Sequence record: NC_052660.1
Length of the DNA: 64,000 nt
From: Escherichia phage tuntematon
Strand: one strand, 5' to 3'
The notes under the pieces were generated by a model. That model was not told the origin of the DNA and did no database searches. It saw nothing but the letters and a program-made list of their open reading frames with translations. The stretch's first letter is position 1, and each line of letters opens with the position of its first letter. A program made the translations under genes and the position numbers. Below are positions 1,957-56,441 of the stretch, piece by piece.

Positions 1957-3771
1957 ATGAAAGATTTGTACCAAGATGTTTTTTCTTTTTTAGATCGCAC
2001 TTCAGAAACATACACTAGAGAGAATGCAAACAAACCTTCCCACCTCGTTAACACGCATAGGGATCTCTTGGCGGGGATTTTAAGCAAACATATGGCAATG
2101 ATACAGATACTGCCAAAAAACTTGTCAGAATGGCATACAGAAGGTTTTGGACATATTCACGACTTGGATTATCTGCTCTCTCCTCTTACAAACTGTTGTC
2201 TTGTTAATTATCAAGATATGTTAGAAAATGGTTTTAAGATCGGTGCTGCACAGATAGAAAAACCAAAATCTATTGGAGTAGCTACCACAGTGCTAACTCA
2301 AATCATCCAAGCTGTTGCCTCCAGTCAGTATGGAGGTCAAACGTGTGCACACATTGATAAAGGGCTTAGTCCTTATGTTGAAGCTAGTTTCCTTAAAAAC
2401 ATGGAGATAACCAAACGTCGCTACGGTTGTTATGCAAGGAAAGAAGCCCTAGAAATGACAGAACAAGATGTATATGATGCTATGCAAACTCTCTTGTATC
2501 AGGTTAATACTTTAATGAGTGTTAATGGACAATCTCCTTTTATTACAATCAGTATGGGTCTGGATACCTCTGTTTTTGGCAGAATGATCACAGCCAACTA
2601 TCTTAAAGTGCATAGTAACGGTCTAGGCAAAGATCATGTAACGCCTGTATTCCCTAAAGTTATTTTCTTTTTACAAGAAGGTGTTAACATGAAACCTAGT
2701 GATCCTAACTATGACCTTAAGCAACAAGCTTTGGCATGTTGTGCTGATCGTATTTATCCAGATTTTATTTCTGTTCCTTTGAACAAAGAAGTTACGGGAT
2801 CAGCAGATGGTACTGTTACGAGTATGGGTTGTCGTTCCTTTTTGTCGTACTATGCCACCGAACAAGGAGAAAAATATGATGGACGATTCAACCTTGGAGT
2901 AGTTTCTATCAACTTGCCTCTGATTGCTGCGGAAGCGAGAAGTAAAGGAGAATCTTTCACCTACCTCCTTAATAAACATATGGAGATAGCCTACGATGCT
3001 CACATGCTACGTGTAAACCGTATTAGACATACCAAAGCATCTGAAAACCCTATTCTTTTCATGGAAGGGGCTTTAGCGCGTTTAAATGCCAATGATGAAA
3101 TTGGTGTTTTGTTTGAAGATGGTTATGCTTCTATTAGTATTGGTTATGTAGGTCTTGCCGAAGCTTTGGAAATCCTTTATCCAGAAGAAAAAGATAAAAA
3201 GGAACTTGGTAAAAGCATTCTGCAACATATGAAAGATGTGTGTGCTGTGTTTAAAGAACGATCTAAGCTGGCGTTTAGTCTCTATGGAACTCCAGCAGAA
3301 TCCTTGTGCTATAAGTTTGCAACAGCTTTAAATAAAAAATACCCAGGTTTGGTAGAAAGAGACTATCTTACTAACTCTTTTCATCAACCTGTATGGTTGG
3401 TAACAAATCCTTTTGAAAAATGGGATTATGAAGCAGGTTTTGCACAGATTAGTAATGGTGGTAACATAAGTTATGTCGAAACACCAAACTTAAAGAATAA
3501 CTTAGAAGCTTTGGAGACTTTAGTAGACTACGCTTATGAACATATTCACTATTTTGGTATTAATCAGCCCGTGGATCAATGCTTTAAGTGTGGTTTTCAT
3601 GGAGAATTTAAGGCAACGGCTAAAGGGTTTGAGTGTCCTGATTGTGGCAACCATGAAGAAGAAACTATTTCTGTAGTTAGACGTGTATCAGGGTATCTTT
3701 CTGCCCCTAATTCACGGCCTTACAACAAAGGTAAAATGCAGGAAGTTTTGCAAAGGGAGAAACATCTTTGA
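1957..3771 (+). CDS. nrdD: anaerobic ribonucleoside-triphosphate reductase (class III RNR)
   Basis: 604 aa; C-terminal Cys4 zinc ribbon (CFKCGF...CPDCGN) followed by a glycyl-radical motif (RRVSGYLS), both typical of NrdD. Confidence 0.9.
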   Translation: MKDLYQDVFSFLDRTSETYTRENANKPSHLVNTHRDLLAGILSKHMAMIQILPKNLSEWHTEGFGHIHDLDYLLSPLTNCCLVNYQDMLENGFKIGAAQIEKPKSIGVATTVLTQIIQAVASSQYGGQTCAHIDKGLSPYVEASFLKNMEITKRRYGCYARKEALEMTEQDVYDAMQTLLYQVNTLMSVNGQSPFITISMGLDTSVFGRMITANYLKVHSNGLGKDHVTPVFPKVIFFLQEGVNMKPSDPNYDLKQQALACCADRIYPDFISVPLNKEVTGSADGTVTSMGCRSFLSYYATEQGEKYDGRFNLGVVSINLPLIAAEARSKGESFTYLLNKHMEIAYDAHMLRVNRIRHTKASENPILFMEGALARLNANDEIGVLFEDGYASISIGYVGLAEALEILYPEEKDKKELGKSILQHMKDVCAVFKERSKLAFSLYGTPAESLCYKFATALNKKYPGLVERDYLTNSFHQPVWLVTNPFEKWDYEAGFAQISNGGNISYVETPNLKNNLEALETLVDYAYEHIHYFGINQPVDQCFKCGFHGEFKATAKGFECPDCGNHEEETISVVRRVSGYLSAPNSRPYNKGKMQEVLQREKHL

Positions 3772-50910: not shown

Positions 50911-51612
50911 TTAACCTCCGTTGTTTGTTGGGGTATTAGTAGCTTCAGCAGTTCTTACTGTAATATCTGACTTAGGACCATTCGAAGCAACTTGACCTTT
51001 CACATCACCACCAGTCGATTTATTTGGTGCTGTTTTTACAGCAATAGCATTAGTAGTGGCCTTAGAAACGAGACGGATTTGTTCAAACTCTAAATCAAAT
51101 TGCATAGCAAATTCAGATTTATAATCATAAGAGTAGCCTTTGAGAATAACATTTTCAAAAGTCCTATGTTCTGTCAAAAGAACTATTGGTTGTCTTGACT
51201 CAAATATTTGATCTAAATATTCTATTGCTTGAGAAATCCTTGCCCCATTTACACCTGCACTGTATAATTGATCTCGCATAAGCCGAATTGGTGTTTCGGT
51301 AATTATACCTGAAAGTTTAAATCTGTTGTTTTTTATTTGAACGTGGTCACTTACATCCGATCCTGATTCTACTGGAAAACTTGTAACATCTGCCTCACGA
51401 GTTACACCTACTTCAGGGACCGAATCGAAAGTAATTGCTTTAAAGTTTTGAATGTATTGATCACTTGAACTATTATAAACACTTGCTAAAATGCAGAAAC
51501 CATTATCACCCTTTACAGTAGATGCCGAGGTATTTTTATTCTCGGTAGAGTTGATTTCCTGTTCTGCCTTATAGACGGCTCTCACCGACTGTTGTGGAGT
51601 CATTGCTGCCAT
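50911..51612 (-). CDS. hypothetical tail protein
   Basis: 233 aa ORF with its own upstream promoter-like element. Confidence 0.35.
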   Translation of the reverse strand: MAAMTPQQSVRAVYKAEQEINSTENKNTSASTVKGDNGFCILASVYNSSSDQYIQNFKAITFDSVPEVGVTREADVTSFPVESGSDVSDHVQIKNNRFKLSGIITETPIRLMRDQLYSAGVNGARISQAIEYLDQIFESRQPIVLLTEHRTFENVILKGYSYDYKSEFAMQFDLEFEQIRLVSKATTNAIAVKTAPNKSTGGDVKGQVASNGPKSDITVRTAEATNTPTNNGG

Positions 51613-51738: not shown

Positions 51739-53727
51739 TTAACCACCAGTGTTAGATTGTCCACTTAGAGTTGAAAGAGACAAACGTTGGAAAATGCTAT
51801 TTCCGCTATTTTGAATTCTTGCATCAAGAATATTTCCAAACTCTGAAGAAGGGCTGATCGTAACTTTGATAAGATCACTTGGTATTGCTACCGTATTCTC
51901 AACAACAGGTTGATTACGAGCCAAACTTACGTTAGGTGTATAAGCTGATTCACGTAAATCTTCAAGAGGATTACCAAATCCAAAAGCACGTGTCCTTGTT
52001 TGTTCTCCTCTCCACATACGACCAATATCTTGTGTATCAATACCTGTTAAATTGTACAACCAATCTGCTACAGGATTGCTGTCTCCACTTTGCGTTGCCT
52101 CGTATGCTTTTTGTGCTATAGATTTATTAGGATCTGTGTTGTCTCCGAATGTATCTGGGAATGTTTCTTTAAGCCAATTGGTAAAAGATCCGAAACCATC
52201 TCCCAATTCTTTAGCAAAACCTCCTAATTGAACTGTTGTCTTACCGAGTTCTTCACCTAAATCTTTGGCAAACTGGTCTAGCACTTTAACGTTATCCAAC
52301 CAAGAATCATCTTTAGGTAAGGCTTTCACAAAACCCTCTAAGAAGTGGTTCTGCATACCTTGACCTACAAGCTGAACTGTTGCAGCAAAACGAGTAAACT
52401 CTTTAGAAGCATCTATTTGTTCTTGAGTTAATGTTGCACCTGTTCTTTGAAGCATTTTCAATACTTCATTATACCCTTCGCCGTTTTTACTAAACATACG
52501 TTGGTAGTGCATAAGGTCATCACCAAGGTTTTCAAGAAGTCGCCCGATTTGAGCAGAGTTCATACCTCGACGCTCACCTTCATTAACAGTAGCCTGAATA
52601 AAAGCTAAAGGATCGTTCTGTAAAGGTTTAAGCTGTTCTGGATTCCATCCAAACAAGTTCATAATGTCATTTATGCCATTATCACCGCCTTTCCACTTCC
52701 CTTCTTTCTCATTCCATTTTGAGGCTAAAACTGTATTACCAAGACGTTCACGAACGTCTTTAATATTATCTATTGACTTAATAATATTTGCAGAGTCTAC
52801 ACCGTTCTGTTCACCCCAAGCTGTCATTGCCAAAATAGCGTTGGCGTTTGTCTGAACGTTTTCAGCACCACGACTTACAAGTTTAATTCTTTCGTTAGTA
52901 TTCATCAACGTGTTACCAACTACAGAACCACCTGCAAACAGCCCAGCACCTATTAAAGAGGATGCAATCATGCGTGGATTAAGACCTGCTGCACCTTCTT
53001 TTAATTGTCCATATCGACGATCACGATCACGTTTTTGTTGAGCTAATTCACGCTTACGGTTGCGTTCTATATCTCTAAGTTCACGATTTCGCATACGTAT
53101 ACGCATTTTAGCTTCTGCTTCTAGCTCTCTACGAATACGGCGACGACCGCGAACCTCGTCTTCTATTTCGGCATTCTTTTCACGATGAGATCTGCGTAAG
53201 GCATCTAACTGGTGAGCAAGAGCTTGGTTCATACGTTGAAGAGTTATTTCACCCTTTTTGTATTGCTCTACAGCTTTACCCATAACGTCCCTAGCTTCTT
53301 GCATAGCACCAGGACTGGCTTTACTAAATGCTCTTGCTCTGTAGTTAAAGTTCTGCAAACGAAGATTACCTAAATCTTCCCTACGTGCTGCTGCTTTAGC
53401 TTCGCGTTCAGCAGCTTTACGAGCTTTTTCTTCTTCTCTTCCTTGCGGGGTTTTAGGAGTTCTAGGTCTACCAGATCCTCCTACAGGAGCACCCGCTCCA
53501 GCGTGAGTAGGTGCTCGCATAGGTTTTTGACTTTGAGTTTGAGCTTTCTTAAGTTCACGCTCAATCTCTTTCATTTGTTGTCTAAACTTGGTCATGTTCA
53601 TAGTGGGTTGCATTTTATTTGCAAACTTCTGAACACTCAACACGGCATCTTTTGCTTCCTTGAGACTGTTCTTGTCCACCTTAAACGTAACCACGTTACT
53701 AATTTTGGAGGCGTTAATTTCTAACAA
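51739..53727 (-). CDS. tail tape measure protein (putative)
   Basis: 662 aa; highly charged Arg/Glu-rich helical block, Gly-rich hydrophobic segment (LIGAGLFAGG); sits directly downstream of the chaperone pair. Confidence 0.5.
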   Translation of the reverse strand: MLEINASKISNVVTFKVDKNSLKEAKDAVLSVQKFANKMQPTMNMTKFRQQMKEIERELKKAQTQSQKPMRAPTHAGAGAPVGGSGRPRTPKTPQGREEEKARKAAEREAKAAARREDLGNLRLQNFNYRARAFSKASPGAMQEARDVMGKAVEQYKKGEITLQRMNQALAHQLDALRRSHREKNAEIEDEVRGRRRIRRELEAEAKMRIRMRNRELRDIERNRKRELAQQKRDRDRRYGQLKEGAAGLNPRMIASSLIGAGLFAGGSVVGNTLMNTNERIKLVSRGAENVQTNANAILAMTAWGEQNGVDSANIIKSIDNIKDVRERLGNTVLASKWNEKEGKWKGGDNGINDIMNLFGWNPEQLKPLQNDPLAFIQATVNEGERRGMNSAQIGRLLENLGDDLMHYQRMFSKNGEGYNEVLKMLQRTGATLTQEQIDASKEFTRFAATVQLVGQGMQNHFLEGFVKALPKDDSWLDNVKVLDQFAKDLGEELGKTTVQLGGFAKELGDGFGSFTNWLKETFPDTFGDNTDPNKSIAQKAYEATQSGDSNPVADWLYNLTGIDTQDIGRMWRGEQTRTRAFGFGNPLEDLRESAYTPNVSLARNQPVVENTVAIPSDLIKVTISPSSEFGNILDARIQNSGNSIFQRLSLSTLSGQSNTGG

Positions 53728-53747
53728 AGTATGTTCCTCGTGTTGGA

Positions 53748-53966
53748 TTAAACAAGTTTCTTAAACAAATCTGACATTTTATTTGTCTGGTTTTGATGTT
53801 TTCTCTTTATTGAAGTGTCTTTAACATACATGGCTTCAACATACTCTTCGTATGTTAAATACTCATATAGTTTTAAAAGATAATCTACACCGTAGTTATC
53901 CAATGTTTTCAGTGTTTCCGAGGTATCTTTAACGACTTTGCAAAGAATAACCTCATACCACTTCAA
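53748..53966 (-). CDS. tail assembly chaperone, frameshift extension (GT-like distal ORF)
   Basis: 72 aa ORF whose frame is open upstream and is the -1 frame relative to the 3' end of the 54014-54496 ORF. Confidence 0.4.
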   Translation of the reverse strand: MKWYEVILCKVVKDTSETLKTLDNYGVDYLLKLYEYLTYEEYVEAMYVKDTSIKRKHQNQTNKMSDLFKKLV

Positions 53967-54013
53967 AGTAAGGGTTTTCGTTGCTGTGTCGATAGCATGT
54001 TCAATCGCAGGTG

Positions 54014-54496
54014 TTAATTTGCTGCTAAACTCGTCATCGCCTGAAGCTGTGTGAACAGTTTTCCGAAACCTCGTTTGAAAAAAGGGCCGTAGTTTACCTC
54101 CAGAACTTTAGCAGTAAGATCTAACACTAGTTCTGGGTGAGCCATAAATAATTCATCAAAATTTTCTGCAACGTTATAACCGTCTTGAGTATAAACCTCA
54201 TCTAAAATTTTACGCAAAAAGACCGTTAAATTCTTTTCTTCCAAACCTGCAAAAAGTTGGATCAGTGCCATAGCAATACGTGACTCAAGGTCTTCGTCTG
54301 CGGACATTGTTGCTGTGCTATACATAGTCATAGGAACAACCAGAACACTACCCAATTCTGGAATCCTGTCAAACACTTTAGATGGACTCCACTTCATAAT
54401 ACGGAAAGTAACAGATCTGTTTCCATCTAACGGAATCTCAACTACTTCTTCTGGTCGAGCATATTTTTGAATTGTGTTATCTTGTTCTTGTGACAT
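54014..54496 (-). CDS. tail assembly chaperone (G-like)
   Basis: 160 aa ORF between tube and tape measure; slippery heptamer near its 3' end. Confidence 0.5.
   Translation of the reverse strand: MSQEQDNTIQKYARPEEVVEIPLDGNRSVTFRIMKWSPSKVFDRIPELGSVLVVPMTMYSTATMSADEDLESRIAMALIQLFAGLEEKNLTVFLRKILDEVYTQDGYNVAENFDELFMAHPELVLDLTAKVLEVNYGPFFKRGFGKLFTQLQAMTSLAAN
54077..54083 (-). other. candidate -1 programmed ribosomal frameshift slippery site
   Basis: On the - strand the zero-frame reads CC[T TTT TTC] (heptamer T_TTT_TTC); the -1 frame from here runs without stops into the 53748-53966 ORF. Confidence 0.45.
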
Positions 54497-54507
54497 ATTT
54501 TCCTCTC

Positions 54508-54536
54508 TAATGATAAAAAGGGCATTTCTGCCCTTT
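54508..54536 (-). terminator. rho-independent terminator after the putative tube gene
   Basis: AAGGGCA-gaaa-TGCCCTT hairpin followed on the - strand by TTTTTATCATT. Confidence 0.6.
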
Positions 54537-54541
54537 ATTTA

Positions 54542-55021
54542 TTATTGAATTGTCAGAGCAGAGATTGAGTTAAGGGTGCTCAAACCTACACCAACTTCAT
54601 TACGCAGAAGACTTGCATCTTTAAGACCAATAACCCATTGGTTCTCTGTAATCATTTCGCCAATAGTATCTTCAGGCTGACTTTGAATCCATCCAATCGT
54701 GCTAATGTAATAGCCACGTGGGTCTTCCAAGTAAACACTGAACGCTACTTGACGAGTAGAATACATTGTTTGTGCATATGTTGCAAGCACTTCGTTAGCT
54801 GGAGATGTGCGTTGCAAAGACATTGTGAGTGTTCCCAAACGGTTACGACTCAAAGCTAGTGAAACGTCGCCATCAGTCCCTGAATAAGGGTTGATAATAT
54901 CGTTAGATTTAGCAATAACGATTTTAGTATCAGCCGCAAAACCCCACGGTTCCCAACCACCTAATGAAAGGATAACTTGAGATGGGTCGTAGGCCATTAC
55001 GCCAGTAAGCATTTTATCCAT
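54542..55021 (-). CDS. tail tube protein (putative)
   Basis: 159 aa ORF immediately downstream of the putative sheath gene and upstream of the chaperone/tape-measure genes; assignment by gene order. Confidence 0.45.
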   Translation of the reverse strand: MDKMLTGVMAYDPSQVILSLGGWEPWGFAADTKIVIAKSNDIINPYSGTDGDVSLALSRNRLGTLTMSLQRTSPANEVLATYAQTMYSTRQVAFSVYLEDPRGYYISTIGWIQSQPEDTIGEMITENQWVIGLKDASLLRNEVGVGLSTLNSISALTIQ

Positions 55022-55067: not shown

Positions 55068-56441
55068 TTAGTTTGCAGTACGGTTAGTCAGGACGTTGAC
55101 CTGAACTTTAACGTAATGGAAGAAGCCAGCGTAAACATATTCAATCTTCATCCCATCGACCAGACGAGCATTGATTTGCGCATCAGTCATATCGGCACGA
55201 GAAGGAATATAAACAATAGGTTTCAGATCGACACGCAAACCAGTCTCTTCAGAAGTAACAACTTCATTAGCGATGGAACCGTTGAGGATACCTACTTGGA
55301 TCGGGTTAGCCAGAACAGCTTGTCGAATCAAAGCCAGACCGTTTGAAGTAGCACGAACACCACCACCCAGCATAGACTGTTGTTTAAACAGTGTAAACAG
55401 TGATTCTTCTGTGCGAGCTTTAAACCACAAAGCATGAACAACATAGTCAACAAAGAAACCGCTAACCATCAATCCATCACGATAGAACAGAGTTCCATGC
55501 TCTTTACGATAGATGTTACCGTTCTGTTGAACAATATTGTTTTCCGAAGTCTGATCCAGTTTCTCGATCTCTACACCTACCAGTGTTTTACCGTGAAGAG
55601 TAGTTAAACCAGGTTGACGAGAACAGATTGCACCAACAACTGCTGCTTCTGGGAATACAGAATCTGCATCGGTCATCCACAAAGCAAAGCAAGTGTTATT
55701 ATAACCGAGGTCATTCAGTCGTTCCAGAACGTTATCTTCTGCTTTCGTTTTAATTCCAGGTTCAGAGCTAGAGAAGAAGTAAACTTTATCATTCTCTTCT
55801 ACCCATGCAGCCAAAGCTAGAACATCTTCTGTTTCATGGGAATCTGAAAGGGTCCAGAACCAGCTACTATCAATATCATGCAGAGCAGCGATATCTTCCG
55901 TAATAGCATTAGCATAGACAGTTTCTTGAGTGAAACCTGTGCTGTCAATAGAACCAAACTTACCTTCTACTGGAGTGAAAGTCATTGCAGCGCCGTTGTT
56001 AGCTACTGTAAACAGTGGGCCATAAACAAGATCTGCATTGATCATTTCAGTCAGACCAACTACAATCTCTTGTGCAGTTGCAGTGTCATCAGCAATGAAT
56101 TTAAATTCTTTTTTCTTGGTACCATTTTTGATGGTAATTGTGTAAGTTGCACTATCTTCTACGATTGGAGTTAGAGTAAAGTTTGTAACTTCACGCTTAC
56201 CAACCATGACTTGATCTGGTGGGAACAAACCGTTAAACAGTTTGACTGCCATAATATACGCTGGATCATTTAATCCATAACCTGCTTCCAAAAGTGCATC
56301 GGAAGAAGAGTAATATTGAATCGCTTCGCCAGTTACGTTCTGACCTGTAAGGATCAGGGGAATATCGAACTGGGTTTCACGAATTGATGTAGCACCATAC
56401 AGTAAAGTTACGGTTGCTACCTTTTCACGAAAAGTTGCCAT
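55068..56441 (-). CDS. tail sheath protein (putative)
   Basis: 457 aa ORF preceding the tube gene; size and position typical of contractile-tail sheath; no motif verified. Confidence 0.45.
   Translation of the reverse strand: MATFREKVATVTLLYGATSIRETQFDIPLILTGQNVTGEAIQYYSSSDALLEAGYGLNDPAYIMAVKLFNGLFPPDQVMVGKREVTNFTLTPIVEDSATYTITIKNGTKKKEFKFIADDTATAQEIVVGLTEMINADLVYGPLFTVANNGAAMTFTPVEGKFGSIDSTGFTQETVYANAITEDIAALHDIDSSWFWTLSDSHETEDVLALAAWVEENDKVYFFSSSEPGIKTKAEDNVLERLNDLGYNNTCFALWMTDADSVFPEAAVVGAICSRQPGLTTLHGKTLVGVEIEKLDQTSENNIVQQNGNIYRKEHGTLFYRDGLMVSGFFVDYVVHALWFKARTEESLFTLFKQQSMLGGGVRATSNGLALIRQAVLANPIQVGILNGSIANEVVTSEETGLRVDLKPIVYIPSRADMTDAQINARLVDGMKIEYVYAGFFHYVKVQVNVLTNRTAN

What the first reader, a model, noticed from the sequence alone, without database searches (positions are those of the whole stretch)
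53748..54496. Candidate -1 programmed frameshift joining the two tail-chaperone ORFs
On the - strand the 160-aa ORF (54014-54496) contains, 17 codons before its stop, the heptamer T_TTT_TTC in the zero frame (54083-54077). I translated the -1 frame from that point and it runs without stops straight into the 72-aa ORF (53748-53966). This reproduces the conserved G/GT-type chaperone frameshift between tail tube and tape-measure genes of long-tailed phages, and independently supports the tube, chaperone and tape-measure assignment.
Basis: partly seen in the sequence, partly recalled or inferred. Interest (0 to 1): 0.5.

Follow-up and report, generated by a model that had tools for sequence, protein, structure and literature searches.

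The report
Tail-chaperone −1 frameshift, unannotated here
The phage's tail-assembly chaperone gene carries a conserved slippery sequence that lets a fraction of ribosomes slip back one base and make a longer chaperone, a classic trick of long-tailed phages; it is real but ordinary, and simply missing from this phage group's database annotations.

Summary
The window is Escherichia phage nieznany (Phapecoctavirus, 100% identity). On the − strand, the 160-aa tail assembly chaperone ORF (54014-54496; Pfam Phage_TAC_15, E=1e-23) contains T_TTT_TTC in phase at 54083-54077. The −1 frame is open from 54107 to the TAA at 53750-53748, straight through the 72-aa ORF. One detail is wrong: 20 sense codons follow the heptamer, not 17.

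Comparison makes the case. All 53 first-round relatives (44 distinct fusion sequences), plus four fetched later, keep T_TTT_TTC in phase at the homologous site. They span Stephanstirmvirinae, Vequintavirinae, Plateaulakevirus and Ounavirinae, down to about 25% chaperone identity. Where not truncated, the −1 ORF runs 78-98 codons.

The "intergenic" stretch upstream of the TTG start varies like coding sequence in the −1 frame. One homolog (Rheinheimera phage Barba30A) carries lambda's G_GGA_AAG instead.

No downstream RNA structure is conserved. An SD-like GGAGGT lies 9-13 nt upstream and may stimulate the shift.

The same site is already annotated as a joined CDS in Mooglevirus Mordin, and a 2025 paper proposes it for two related families. 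None of 18 Stephanstirmvirinae or Vequintavirinae records inspected annotates it. Verdict: a new member of a known kind; low interest; useful as an annotation fix.

The parts
54014..54496 (-). Short chaperone ORF (G-like, TAC-N), 160 aa, zero frame; stop TAA at 54016-54014
   Evidence: Pfam Phage_TAC_15 1.3e-23; PHROG 3840 'tail assembly chaperone' 2.8e-55; annotated as tail assembly chaperone in RefSeq NC_052659
54096..54101 (-). Internal Shine-Dalgarno-like GGAGGT, 9 nt 5' of C_CCT_TTT and 12 nt 5' of T_TTT_TTC (10 and 13 nt counted from GGAGG); candidate 5' stimulator (inferred)
   Evidence: An SD-like match of at least 4 nt with a 10-14 nt spacer is present in 23 of 30 distinct relatives' contexts, against 18% at random window positions. 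The Glu codon is mostly GAG although GAA is 73% of Glu codons in window genes. The 9-14 nt spacing rule for -1 shifts is from PMC5009743 sect. 36.
54080..54086 (-). First in-phase slippery heptamer, C_CCT_TTT; present only in the Stephanstirmvirinae-like group; gives the same product
   Evidence: C_CC.U_UU.U belongs to the efficient H_HH.U_UU.Y class in E. coli (PMC4066793)
54077..54083 (-). Main slippery heptamer T_TTT_TTC (codons 138-140, CCT TTT TTC); proposed site of tandem -1 tRNA slippage
   Evidence: Invariant in 53 first-round loci and 4 further relatives. The preceding codon varies (CCT/TGT/AGT) but always ends in T; the codon after the slip varies (CAA/CAC/CGG/CGA) but always starts with C.
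54017..54107 (-). Overlap window in which a -1 shift can join the two frames (91 nt); dual-coded
   Evidence: -1 frame stop TAA at 54110-54108 and zero-frame stop at 54016-54014; in this stretch the zero frame dominates the substitution pattern
53748..54077 (-). -1 frame extension (T-like, TAC-C part): 109 codons from 54077 to 53751, then TAA at 53750-53748; base 54077 is read twice. GT-like fusion = 54496..54077 + 54077..53748 = 249 aa
   Evidence: Third-codon-position variability is 0.61-0.65 against 0.27-0.40 for positions 1 and 2 across relatives, including the 16 codons upstream of the TTG. PHROGs 16039/10409/8811 'unknown function'.
53748..53966 (-). 72-aa 'ORF' (TTG start): the C-terminal two thirds of the T part, not an independent gene
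   Evidence: No SD upstream. The TTG is not conserved (TTA in KP13-16). Annotated starts differ between relatives. Conserved residues TPAIEHAIDTATKTLT lie upstream of it.
51739..53727 (-). Tape measure protein gene, 662 aa, begins 21 nt after the -1 ORF stop
   Evidence: PHROG 16051 'tail length tape measure protein'; RefSeq annotation
54542..55021 (-). Tail tube gene (159 aa), immediately upstream
   Evidence: Pfam KPP10_Orf10 3e-05, just under the gathering cut-off; PHROG 280; called tail tube in SKA64
55068..56441 (-). Tail sheath gene (457 aa)
   Evidence: Pfam DUF3383 7e-20; RefSeq 'tail sheath'
54517..54536 (-). Terminator-like hairpin between the tube and chaperone genes (context; would lower chaperone and tape-measure transcription relative to sheath and tube)
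   Evidence: annotated as a terminator in phAPEC8 and at the same place in Mordin

Best explanation
This is a programmed -1 ribosomal frameshift of the lambda G/GT type in the tail assembly chaperone gene of a contractile-tailed phage (phage nieznany, Phapecoctavirus).

Most ribosomes translate the 160-aa short chaperone and stop at 54016-54014. A minority slip. With tRNA-Phe on UUU in the P site and tRNA-Phe on UUC in the A site (U_UUU_UUC, 54083-54077), both tRNAs move back one base. In this lineage the slip can alternatively happen one codon earlier, on C_CCU_UUU. Either way the ribosome then reads CAA ACG AGG... in the -1 frame for 109 more codons, to the TAA at 53750-53748. The product is a 249-aa fusion (...VNYGPFF|QTRFRK...).

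No 3' RNA structure is involved. An internal Shine-Dalgarno-like GGAGGT 9-13 nt upstream probably raises the otherwise low slip rate.

By analogy with lambda, the shared N-terminal part would coat the tape measure protein. The rarer C-terminal domain would recruit tube subunits, and neither form would end up in the virion.

What is shown: the site, its phase, the open frame, its conservation, and the coding signature of the -1 extension. What is inferred: that ribosomes rather than RNA polymerase slip, the role of the SD-like element, the efficiency, and the assembly role.
For: Anatomy. Chaperone identity and gene order.

Conservation:
- T_TTT_TTC lies in phase inside the -1 overlap in all 14 GenBank relatives first examined and in all 39 IMG/VR loci. 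That is 53 loci and 44 distinct fusion sequences.
- It is also present in Acinetobacter phage ABPH49, Aeromonas phage 4L372D, Mooglevirus Mordin and Felixounavirus Alf5.
- Chaperone identity falls to 25-30%, yet the -1 ORF always runs 78-98 codons (68 in one locus cut by its contig end).
- In the Stephanstirmvirinae, Vequintavirinae and Ounavirinae relatives it ends just before the tape measure gene.

Selection at the nucleotide level:
- The codon before TTT TTC varies (CCT, TGT, AGT) but always ends in T.
- The Phe pair is always TTT-TTC, although only 9 of 50 Phe-Phe pairs in window genes use that pair.
- The base after T6 is always C, although the -1 codon it starts varies.

Coding signature: after the G stop, the -1 frame's third position varies 0.61-0.65 against 0.27-0.40 for positions 1 and 2. 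This includes the 16 codons upstream of the TTG.

In the overlap the zero frame dominates, so the short form is also under selection.

A different slippery site in a homolog: Rheinheimera phage Barba30A has no T-run but carries lambda's G_GGA_AAG in phase a few codons away, with a homologous -1 domain.

Motif competence: U_UU.C is the second most shift-prone tetramer, and H_HH.U_UU.Y heptamers are among the most efficient in E. coli (PMC4066793).

SD-like element: spacing fits the 9-14 nt rule (PMC5009743). It is present in 23 of 30 distinct contexts against an 18% baseline.

Against: - There is no protein, ribosome-profiling or reporter evidence for this phage or its subfamily. No paper was found for phAPEC8- or rV5-type phages.
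- No downstream stimulatory structure: folding z-scores run from -0.9 to +0.9 and consensus energies are -2.45 and -0.61 kcal/mol. Without stimulators such heptamers shift at well under 1% in E. coli reporters.
- The SD-like element is missing in 7 of 30 contexts. It also coincides with a conserved Leu-Glu-Val motif, so its conservation may be protein-driven.
- The relatives share ancestry, so the 50+ loci are not independent observations.
- The IMG/VR scan used a peptide pattern containing FF. That biases towards Phe-Phe, though not towards the codon choice.
- A one-base insertion by RNA polymerase at T6 would give the identical protein.
Confidence: 0.88

Rival explanations
1. Transcriptional slippage. 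RNA polymerase stutters on the T6 run and adds one extra U to a fraction of the mRNAs. Normal translation of those transcripts then gives the same 249-aa fusion.
For: The slip site is a homopolymer run, and the predicted protein is identical (PFF|QTR), so sequence alone cannot fully separate the two. The U7 and A7 runs are depleted in all frames in E. coli genes, possibly because of transcriptional slippage (PMC4066793). Felixounavirus CL1's record carries T7 at this site, which shows the run is indel-prone at some level.
Against: The run is exactly six T followed by C in all 30 distinct contexts, and never longer. Selection for polymerase slippage should favour longer runs. Productive slippage in bacteria is generally described for longer runs (my own knowledge, not tested here). 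The run is always in the X_XXY_YYZ phase. The homolog in Barba30A has no homopolymer but the classic ribosomal heptamer G_GGA_AAG. A correctly spaced SD-like element matters only for ribosomes.
Confidence: 0.06
2. There is no recoding. The 72-aa ORF (53748-53966) is an independent small gene started at its TTG, as it is annotated in phAPEC8 and many relatives.
For: It is annotated as a separate hypothetical protein in many records. It forms its own PHROG families (16039 and others). No in-frame natural fusion was found among 41 database homologs.
Against: - No SD precedes the TTG.
- The TTG is not conserved: it is TTA in KP13-16.
- Annotated starts are scattered over about 100 codons between relatives.
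- The -1 frame has no start codon between 54107 and 53966, yet it is conserved and shows a coding signature there.
- The -1 frame never acquires a stop between the heptamer and the ORF in 50+ loci.
Confidence: 0.03
3. Chance or artefact. The heptamer is a coincidental Phe-Phe in an AT-rich genome, or the two frames result from a homopolymer sequencing error in what is really a single gene.
For: Any in-phase heptamer is expected about 0.13 times in a window of this size. T-runs are error-prone, and CL1 shows a one-base length difference at this very site.
Against: The same T6C is found in more than 50 independently sequenced genomes and metagenome contigs. Both halves are found in two frames in 134 records with the nieznany fusion and 352 records with the rV5 fusion. 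The zero-frame tail after the heptamer is itself conserved as protein.
Confidence: 0.02

Closest known systems
Lambda G/GT tail assembly chaperone frameshift and its counterparts in long-tailed phages (Levin et al. 1993; Xu, Hendrix & Duda 2004, 2013, 2014, as summarised in PMC5009743)
   Same: Position between the tail tube gene and the tape measure gene. A short abundant product plus a rare -1 extended fusion. [quoted passage not shown] No 3' structure is required. Neither ORF needs sequence similarity to lambda's.
   Different: The heptamer is U_UUU_UUC (plus C_CCU_UUU) rather than G_GGA_AAG. The host virion is a contractile-tailed myovirus of about 145 kb. The chaperone belongs to Pfam Phage_TAC_15, not lambda's family. 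There is a possible 5' SD-like stimulator. Efficiency and function are untested.
Tape measure chaperone frameshift of FelixO1-like phages (Ounavirinae: Moogle, Mordin) and the 'GTTTTT' -1 site proposed for Andersonviridae and Vandenendeviridae (PMC4319497; PMC12846349)
   Same: Homologous chaperone and homologous site. Mordin and Alf5 have ...GGAGG-13 nt-T_TTT_TTC... at the aligned (LE.N[YF]G.FF) position, with a homologous -1 domain. Mordin's RefSeq record joins the two parts.
   Different: Those clades are already annotated or published. None of the 18 Stephanstirmvirinae or Vequintavirinae records inspected annotates it. Phapecoctavirus has CCC rather than G before the T-run, which creates a second overlapping heptamer. 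The T part is 109 aa here, against about 80 aa in Ounavirinae.
E. coli dnaX and IS-element -1 frameshift signals (heptamer + 5' SD + 3' hairpin or pseudoknot)
   Same: A tandem-slippage heptamer of an efficient class. An SD-like sequence lies at the 9-14 nt distance that stimulates -1 shifts. U_UU.U_UU.C is itself used by IS elements.
   Different: No 3' hairpin or pseudoknot was detectable. The outcome is a C-terminal extension, not truncation as in dnaX.
T4-like phages' tail chaperones (Vladimirov, Gautam & Davidson 2022, as summarised in PMC10885494)
   Same: The same need for a short and a long chaperone form in a contractile-tailed phage.
   Different: There the two forms are reported to come from separate short and long genes rather than from frameshifting. 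Here there is a single locus with two overlapping frames.

Membership tests
G/GT-type tail assembly chaperone -1 programmed frameshift | Two overlapping ORFs located between the major tail/tube gene and the tape measure gene | tested here: met
   Order is sheath 55068-56441, tube 54542-55021, G 54014-54496, -1 ORF to 53748, tape measure 51739-53727
G/GT-type tail assembly chaperone -1 programmed frameshift | The upstream ORF is a tail assembly chaperone | tested here: met
   Pfam PF21822 Phage_TAC_15 1.3e-23 (cut-off 22 bits, score 84.3); PHROG 3840
G/GT-type tail assembly chaperone -1 programmed frameshift | [quoted passage not shown] | tested here: met
   T_TTT_TTC at 54083-54077 and C_CCT_TTT at 54086-54080, within the 54107-54017 overlap, 20 codons before the stop
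G/GT-type tail assembly chaperone -1 programmed frameshift | The two-frame arrangement and slip site are conserved among diverged relatives | tested here: met
   53 first-round loci plus ABPH49, 4L372D, Mordin and Alf5 keep T_TTT_TTC; Barba30A has G_GGA_AAG
G/GT-type tail assembly chaperone -1 programmed frameshift | The downstream frame is coding but has no initiation signals of its own | tested here: met
   Codon-position test; no start codon in the -1 frame between 54107 and 53966; no SD before the TTG; TTG not conserved
G/GT-type tail assembly chaperone -1 programmed frameshift | The fusion protein is actually made, at a low fixed ratio to the short form, and both forms are required for tail assembly | not testable with these tools
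   Needs mass spectrometry, a reporter assay and phage genetics; no published data found
dnaX/IS-type stimulated -1 frameshift signal | 5' Shine-Dalgarno-like stimulator 9-14 nt upstream of the shift site | tested here: inconclusive
   GGAGGT at 54101-54096 has the right spacing and is enriched in relatives (23 of 30 against an 18% baseline). It overlaps a conserved Leu-Glu-Val motif and is absent in 7 contexts. Its function is untested.
dnaX/IS-type stimulated -1 frameshift signal | 3' hairpin or pseudoknot a few nucleotides after the heptamer | tested here: not met
   Folding energy no better than shuffles (z from -0.88 to +0.92); no consensus structure or covariation; no Rfam family. Pseudoknots were not searched explicitly.
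Programmed transcriptional slippage | A long homopolymer run whose length, not its reading phase, is what is conserved | tested here: not met
   The run is exactly T6 followed by C in all 30 distinct contexts, always in heptamer phase. A homolog uses the non-homopolymeric GGGAAAG. A direct test needs cDNA sequencing.

The most novel reading that the evidence does not exclude
The most novel reading the evidence leaves open concerns the signal rather than the frameshift itself. A double overlapping heptamer (C_CCU_UUU_UUC) combined with an in-ORF Shine-Dalgarno-like sequence, and no 3' structure, would form a distinct, ancient frameshift cassette. It would be shared by Ounavirinae, Vequintavirinae and Stephanstirmvirinae and would set the short-to-long chaperone ratio through rRNA pairing alone. 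Alternatively, the extra base could be added by RNA polymerase at T6. Either would make this clade a clean natural system for studying stimulator-poor frameshifting.
Probability: 0.12. Interest if true: 0.35.

Novelty: new member of a known kind. Interest (0 to 1): 0.2.

Why it matters
The main value is practical. In hundreds of phage genomes the long chaperone form is missing or split into a "hypothetical protein", and three PHROG families (16039, 10409, 8811) are labelled "unknown function" when they are the C-terminal domain of the long chaperone. The affected groups are phAPEC8-, phi92-, rV5-, PVP-SE1- and phiTE-like phages, several of which are therapy or biocontrol candidates. tblastn finds both halves in 134 records with the nieznany fusion and 352 with the rV5 fusion.

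The finding also confirms the sheath, tube, chaperone and tape-measure assignments in this window.

The same heptamer sits at the same aligned position from FelixO1-like to phAPEC8-like phages. That adds one more shared, derived character linking these groups.

It does not change what is understood about recoding or tail assembly.

Tried and rejected
- **Downstream stimulator.** I folded 77-107 nt after the heptamer in nieznany and four relatives. Energies were no better than shuffles. Consensus folding of 10 Stephanstirmvirinae-like and 12 Vequintavirinae-like sequences gave -2.45 and -0.61 kcal/mol with no meaningful covariation. The only "helix" pairs the U-run itself with a downstream GAAAA. 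Rejected.
- **Rfam.** Only two sub-threshold chance hits, both near the terminator.
- **Invariant GGTTTCGG 6-9 nt after the heptamer as an RNA element.** Rejected. Its distance from the heptamer differs by 3 nt between subfamilies. It is absent in Ounavirinae, where the -1 peptide is HFQK instead of RFRK. It is explained by dual coding: Gly-Phe-Gly in frame 0 and Arg-Phe-Arg in frame -1.
- **Natural in-frame fusions as independent proof.** None among 41 homologs in the 5.8-billion-protein database; all are 158-175 aa. The one in-frame record (Felixounavirus CL1) differs by a single extra T in the run and is probably a homopolymer error.
- **+1 frame.** It closes within 3 codons of the G stop, so a +1 or -2 shift is excluded.
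- **Literature for this specific clade.** Searches for phAPEC8, rV5, Vequintavirinae and phiTE with "frameshift" found nothing specific. The Vladimirov 2022 paper is not held.
- **Structure prediction.** Not attempted. A single-sequence model of a 109-aa domain would not have been informative.

Full report
**Identity of the window and the locus**

The stretch 53600-54700 is 100% identical to Escherichia phage nieznany (NC_052659.1; Phapecoctavirus, Stephanstirmvirinae). It is more than 99% identical to 63 phAPEC8-like phage records.

On the − strand the genes run in this order:
- sheath, 55068-56441 (Pfam DUF3383);
- tube, 54542-55021;
- a 160-aa ORF, 54014-54496;
- a 72-aa ORF, 53748-53966;
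- a 662-aa tape measure protein, 51739-53727;
- Dit-like, Pam3-gp18-like and hub proteins.

The 160-aa ORF is a tail assembly chaperone (Pfam Phage_TAC_15, E=1.3e-23; PHROG 3840, E=2.8e-55).

**Checking the observation**

Reading and translating the sequence confirms the heptamer. The codons are GGC CCT TTT TTC AAA, so TTTTTTC at 54083-54077 is phased T_TTT_TTC.

The −1 frame has a TAA at 54110-54108. It is then open from 54107 to the TAA at 53750-53748 and runs through the 72-aa ORF. The joined product is 140 + 109 = 249 aa.

Two corrections and additions:
- Twenty sense codons follow the heptamer, not 17.
- An overlapping in-phase C_CCT_TTT (54086-54080) gives the same product.

Within this genome alone the finding is only suggestive. 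In-phase heptamers occur at 0.43% of codon positions, so about 0.13 are expected in the overlap. T_TTT_TTC occurs 3 times in 19,384 positions.

**Comparative evidence**

tblastn with the predicted fusion finds both halves, as two pieces, in 134 phage records. With the rV5 fusion it finds them in 352 records.

I fetched three sets of relatives:
- 14 GenBank loci: phAPEC8, phiWec181, PHB05, KP13-16, rV5, Hena1, K54_rec5, EspYZU14, SSE121, phiTE, W70, ChuuTotoro, Av-05 and nieznany itself;
- 39 IMG/VR loci;
- ABPH49, Aeromonas phage 4L372D, Rheinheimera phage Barba30A, Felixounavirus CL1 and Alf5, and Mooglevirus Mordin.

All 53 loci of the first two sets (44 distinct fusion sequences) carry T_TTT_TTC in the zero-frame phase inside the −1 overlap. 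So do ABPH49, 4L372D, Mordin and Alf5.

The −1 ORF extends 78-98 codons; it is 68 codons in one locus cut by its contig end. In the Stephanstirmvirinae, Vequintavirinae and Ounavirinae relatives it ends just before the tape measure gene. Chaperone identity to nieznany falls to 25-30%.

The signal is conserved at the nucleotide level, not just as Phe-Phe:
- The codon before TTT TTC is CCT, TGT or AGT, always ending in T.
- The Phe pair is always TTT-TTC, although that pair is used for only 9 of 50 Phe-Phe dipeptides in window genes.
- The seventh base is always C, although the −1 codon it starts varies (CAA, CAC, CGG, CGA).

A caveat applies. The loci are related by descent, and the IMG/VR scan used a peptide pattern containing FF.

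**Is the −1 frame translated from upstream?**

I built codon alignments of the −1 extension in two groups of 12 sequences. After the G stop, third positions vary 0.61-0.65 against 0.27-0.40 for first and second positions. This includes the 16 codons that lie upstream of the TTG "start".

In the dual-coded overlap the pattern is that of the zero frame, so the short form's tail is also under selection.

Several points argue against independent initiation:
- The −1 frame has no ATG, GTG or TTG between 54107 and 53966.
- No SD precedes the TTG.
- The TTG is TTA in KP13-16.
- Annotated starts in relatives are scattered.

Independent initiation is therefore very unlikely.

**Mechanism**

U_UU.C is the second most shift-prone tetramer in E. 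coli, and H_HH.U_UU.Y heptamers are in the efficient class. U_UU.U_UU.C is also used by IS elements (PMC4066793).

No 3' stimulator exists. Folding z-scores run from −0.88 to +0.92, consensus energies are −2.45 and −0.61 kcal/mol, and there is no Rfam match. In this respect the site resembles the low-level lambda G-T frameshift.

An SD-like GGAGGT (54101-54096) lies 9 nt before the first heptamer and 12 nt before the second (10 and 13 nt counted from GGAGG). That is inside the 9-14 nt range that stimulates −1 shifts (PMC5009743).

An SD-like match of at least 4 nt at that distance is present in 23 of 30 distinct contexts, against 18% at random positions. Fifteen have a 6-nt match, against 1.4%. 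The Glu codon there is mostly GAG, although GAA is 73% of Glu codons in window genes.

This is suggestive only, because it coincides with a conserved Leu-Glu-Val motif.

The main rival is a one-U insertion by RNA polymerase at T6, which would give the identical protein. Three facts argue against it:
- The run is never longer than six.
- It is always in heptamer phase.
- Barba30A has replaced the site by the non-homopolymeric lambda heptamer G_GGA_AAG in phase, followed by a homologous −1 domain.

The assembly role is inferred from lambda (PMC5009743): the shared part coats the tape measure, and the C-terminal domain recruits tube subunits.

**Comparison with what is known**

The general phenomenon was established for lambda and shown to be widespread (Xu et al. 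2004).

At the homologous site in FelixO1-like phages:
- Mordin's RefSeq record joins the two parts.
- Mordin and Alf5 have GGAGG-13 nt-T_TTT_TTC, exactly as in nieznany.

A December 2025 paper proposes a conserved GTTTTT −1 site in Vandenendeviridae and Andersonviridae. It notes their relatedness to Vequintavirinae and Stephanstirmvirinae but does not report the site for those two groups (PMC12846349).

None of the 18 Stephanstirmvirinae or Vequintavirinae records I inspected annotates the fusion. The C-terminal part sits in PHROGs of "unknown function". No paper on phAPEC8- or rV5-type phages mentioning it was found.

**Verdict**

This is a new, unannotated member of a well-known kind, homologous to already annotated cases in a sister clade. 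Confidence that a −1 frameshift fusion is made is about 0.9. That the slip is ribosomal rather than transcriptional is likely but unproven. Interest is low (0.2). The value lies in correcting annotation and in confirming the tail-module assignments.

Noticed in passing
window 54517-54536 (- strand): A terminator-like hairpin (AAAGGGCAGAAATGCCCTTT plus a T-rich tail) lies between the tube gene and the chaperone gene. phAPEC8 annotates a terminator there, and Mordin has one at the same place. It may lower chaperone and tape-measure transcription relative to sheath and tube.
   Followed up: partly
L060 (Escherichia phage CL1, OK040806) 1430-1436: The homologous slip site has T7 instead of T6, so the record carries an in-frame 213-aa 'tape measure chaperone' equal to the long form. 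The other Felixounavirus records listed in that search align over 641 rather than 642 nt. This is either a homopolymer sequencing error or a long-form-only variant.
   Followed up: partly
L059 (Rheinheimera phage Barba30A, MK719749) 1424-1430: This homologous chaperone lacks the Phe-Phe/T6 site. It has lambda's G_GGA_AAG in phase about 5 codons downstream, followed by a homologous -1 domain. The slippery site has been replaced during evolution. A reverse-strand DNA-binding gene is also inserted between the -1 ORF and the tape measure gene.
   Followed up: partly
window 54061-54068 (- strand) and the aligned positions in relatives: GGTTTCGG is nearly invariant across Stephanstirmvirinae and Vequintavirinae, 6 or 9 nt after the heptamer. 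It is best explained by dual coding (Gly-Phe-Gly in frame 0, Arg-Phe-Arg in frame -1). It is absent in Ounavirinae.
   Followed up: yes
window 50911-51612 (- strand): RefSeq names this protein's counterpart 'tail fiber protein', but it matches Pfam Dit_like (PF21821, E=9e-27). This is probably a misannotation.
   Followed up: no
GenBank MG065650, MG065689, MG065661 and similar records: Records named 'Campylobacter phage', with host C. jejuni, show about 99.6% nucleotide identity to E. coli Phapecoctavirus here. Others have chaperone matches identical in score to Justusliebigvirus or rV5-like phages. The host labels look doubtful.
   Followed up: no
L011 (Pectobacterium phage phiTE, NC_020201) 2124-3181: In phiTE the -1 ORF is followed by an annotated terminator and two extra ORFs, not directly by the tape measure gene. 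This looks like an insertion within the tail module.
   Followed up: no
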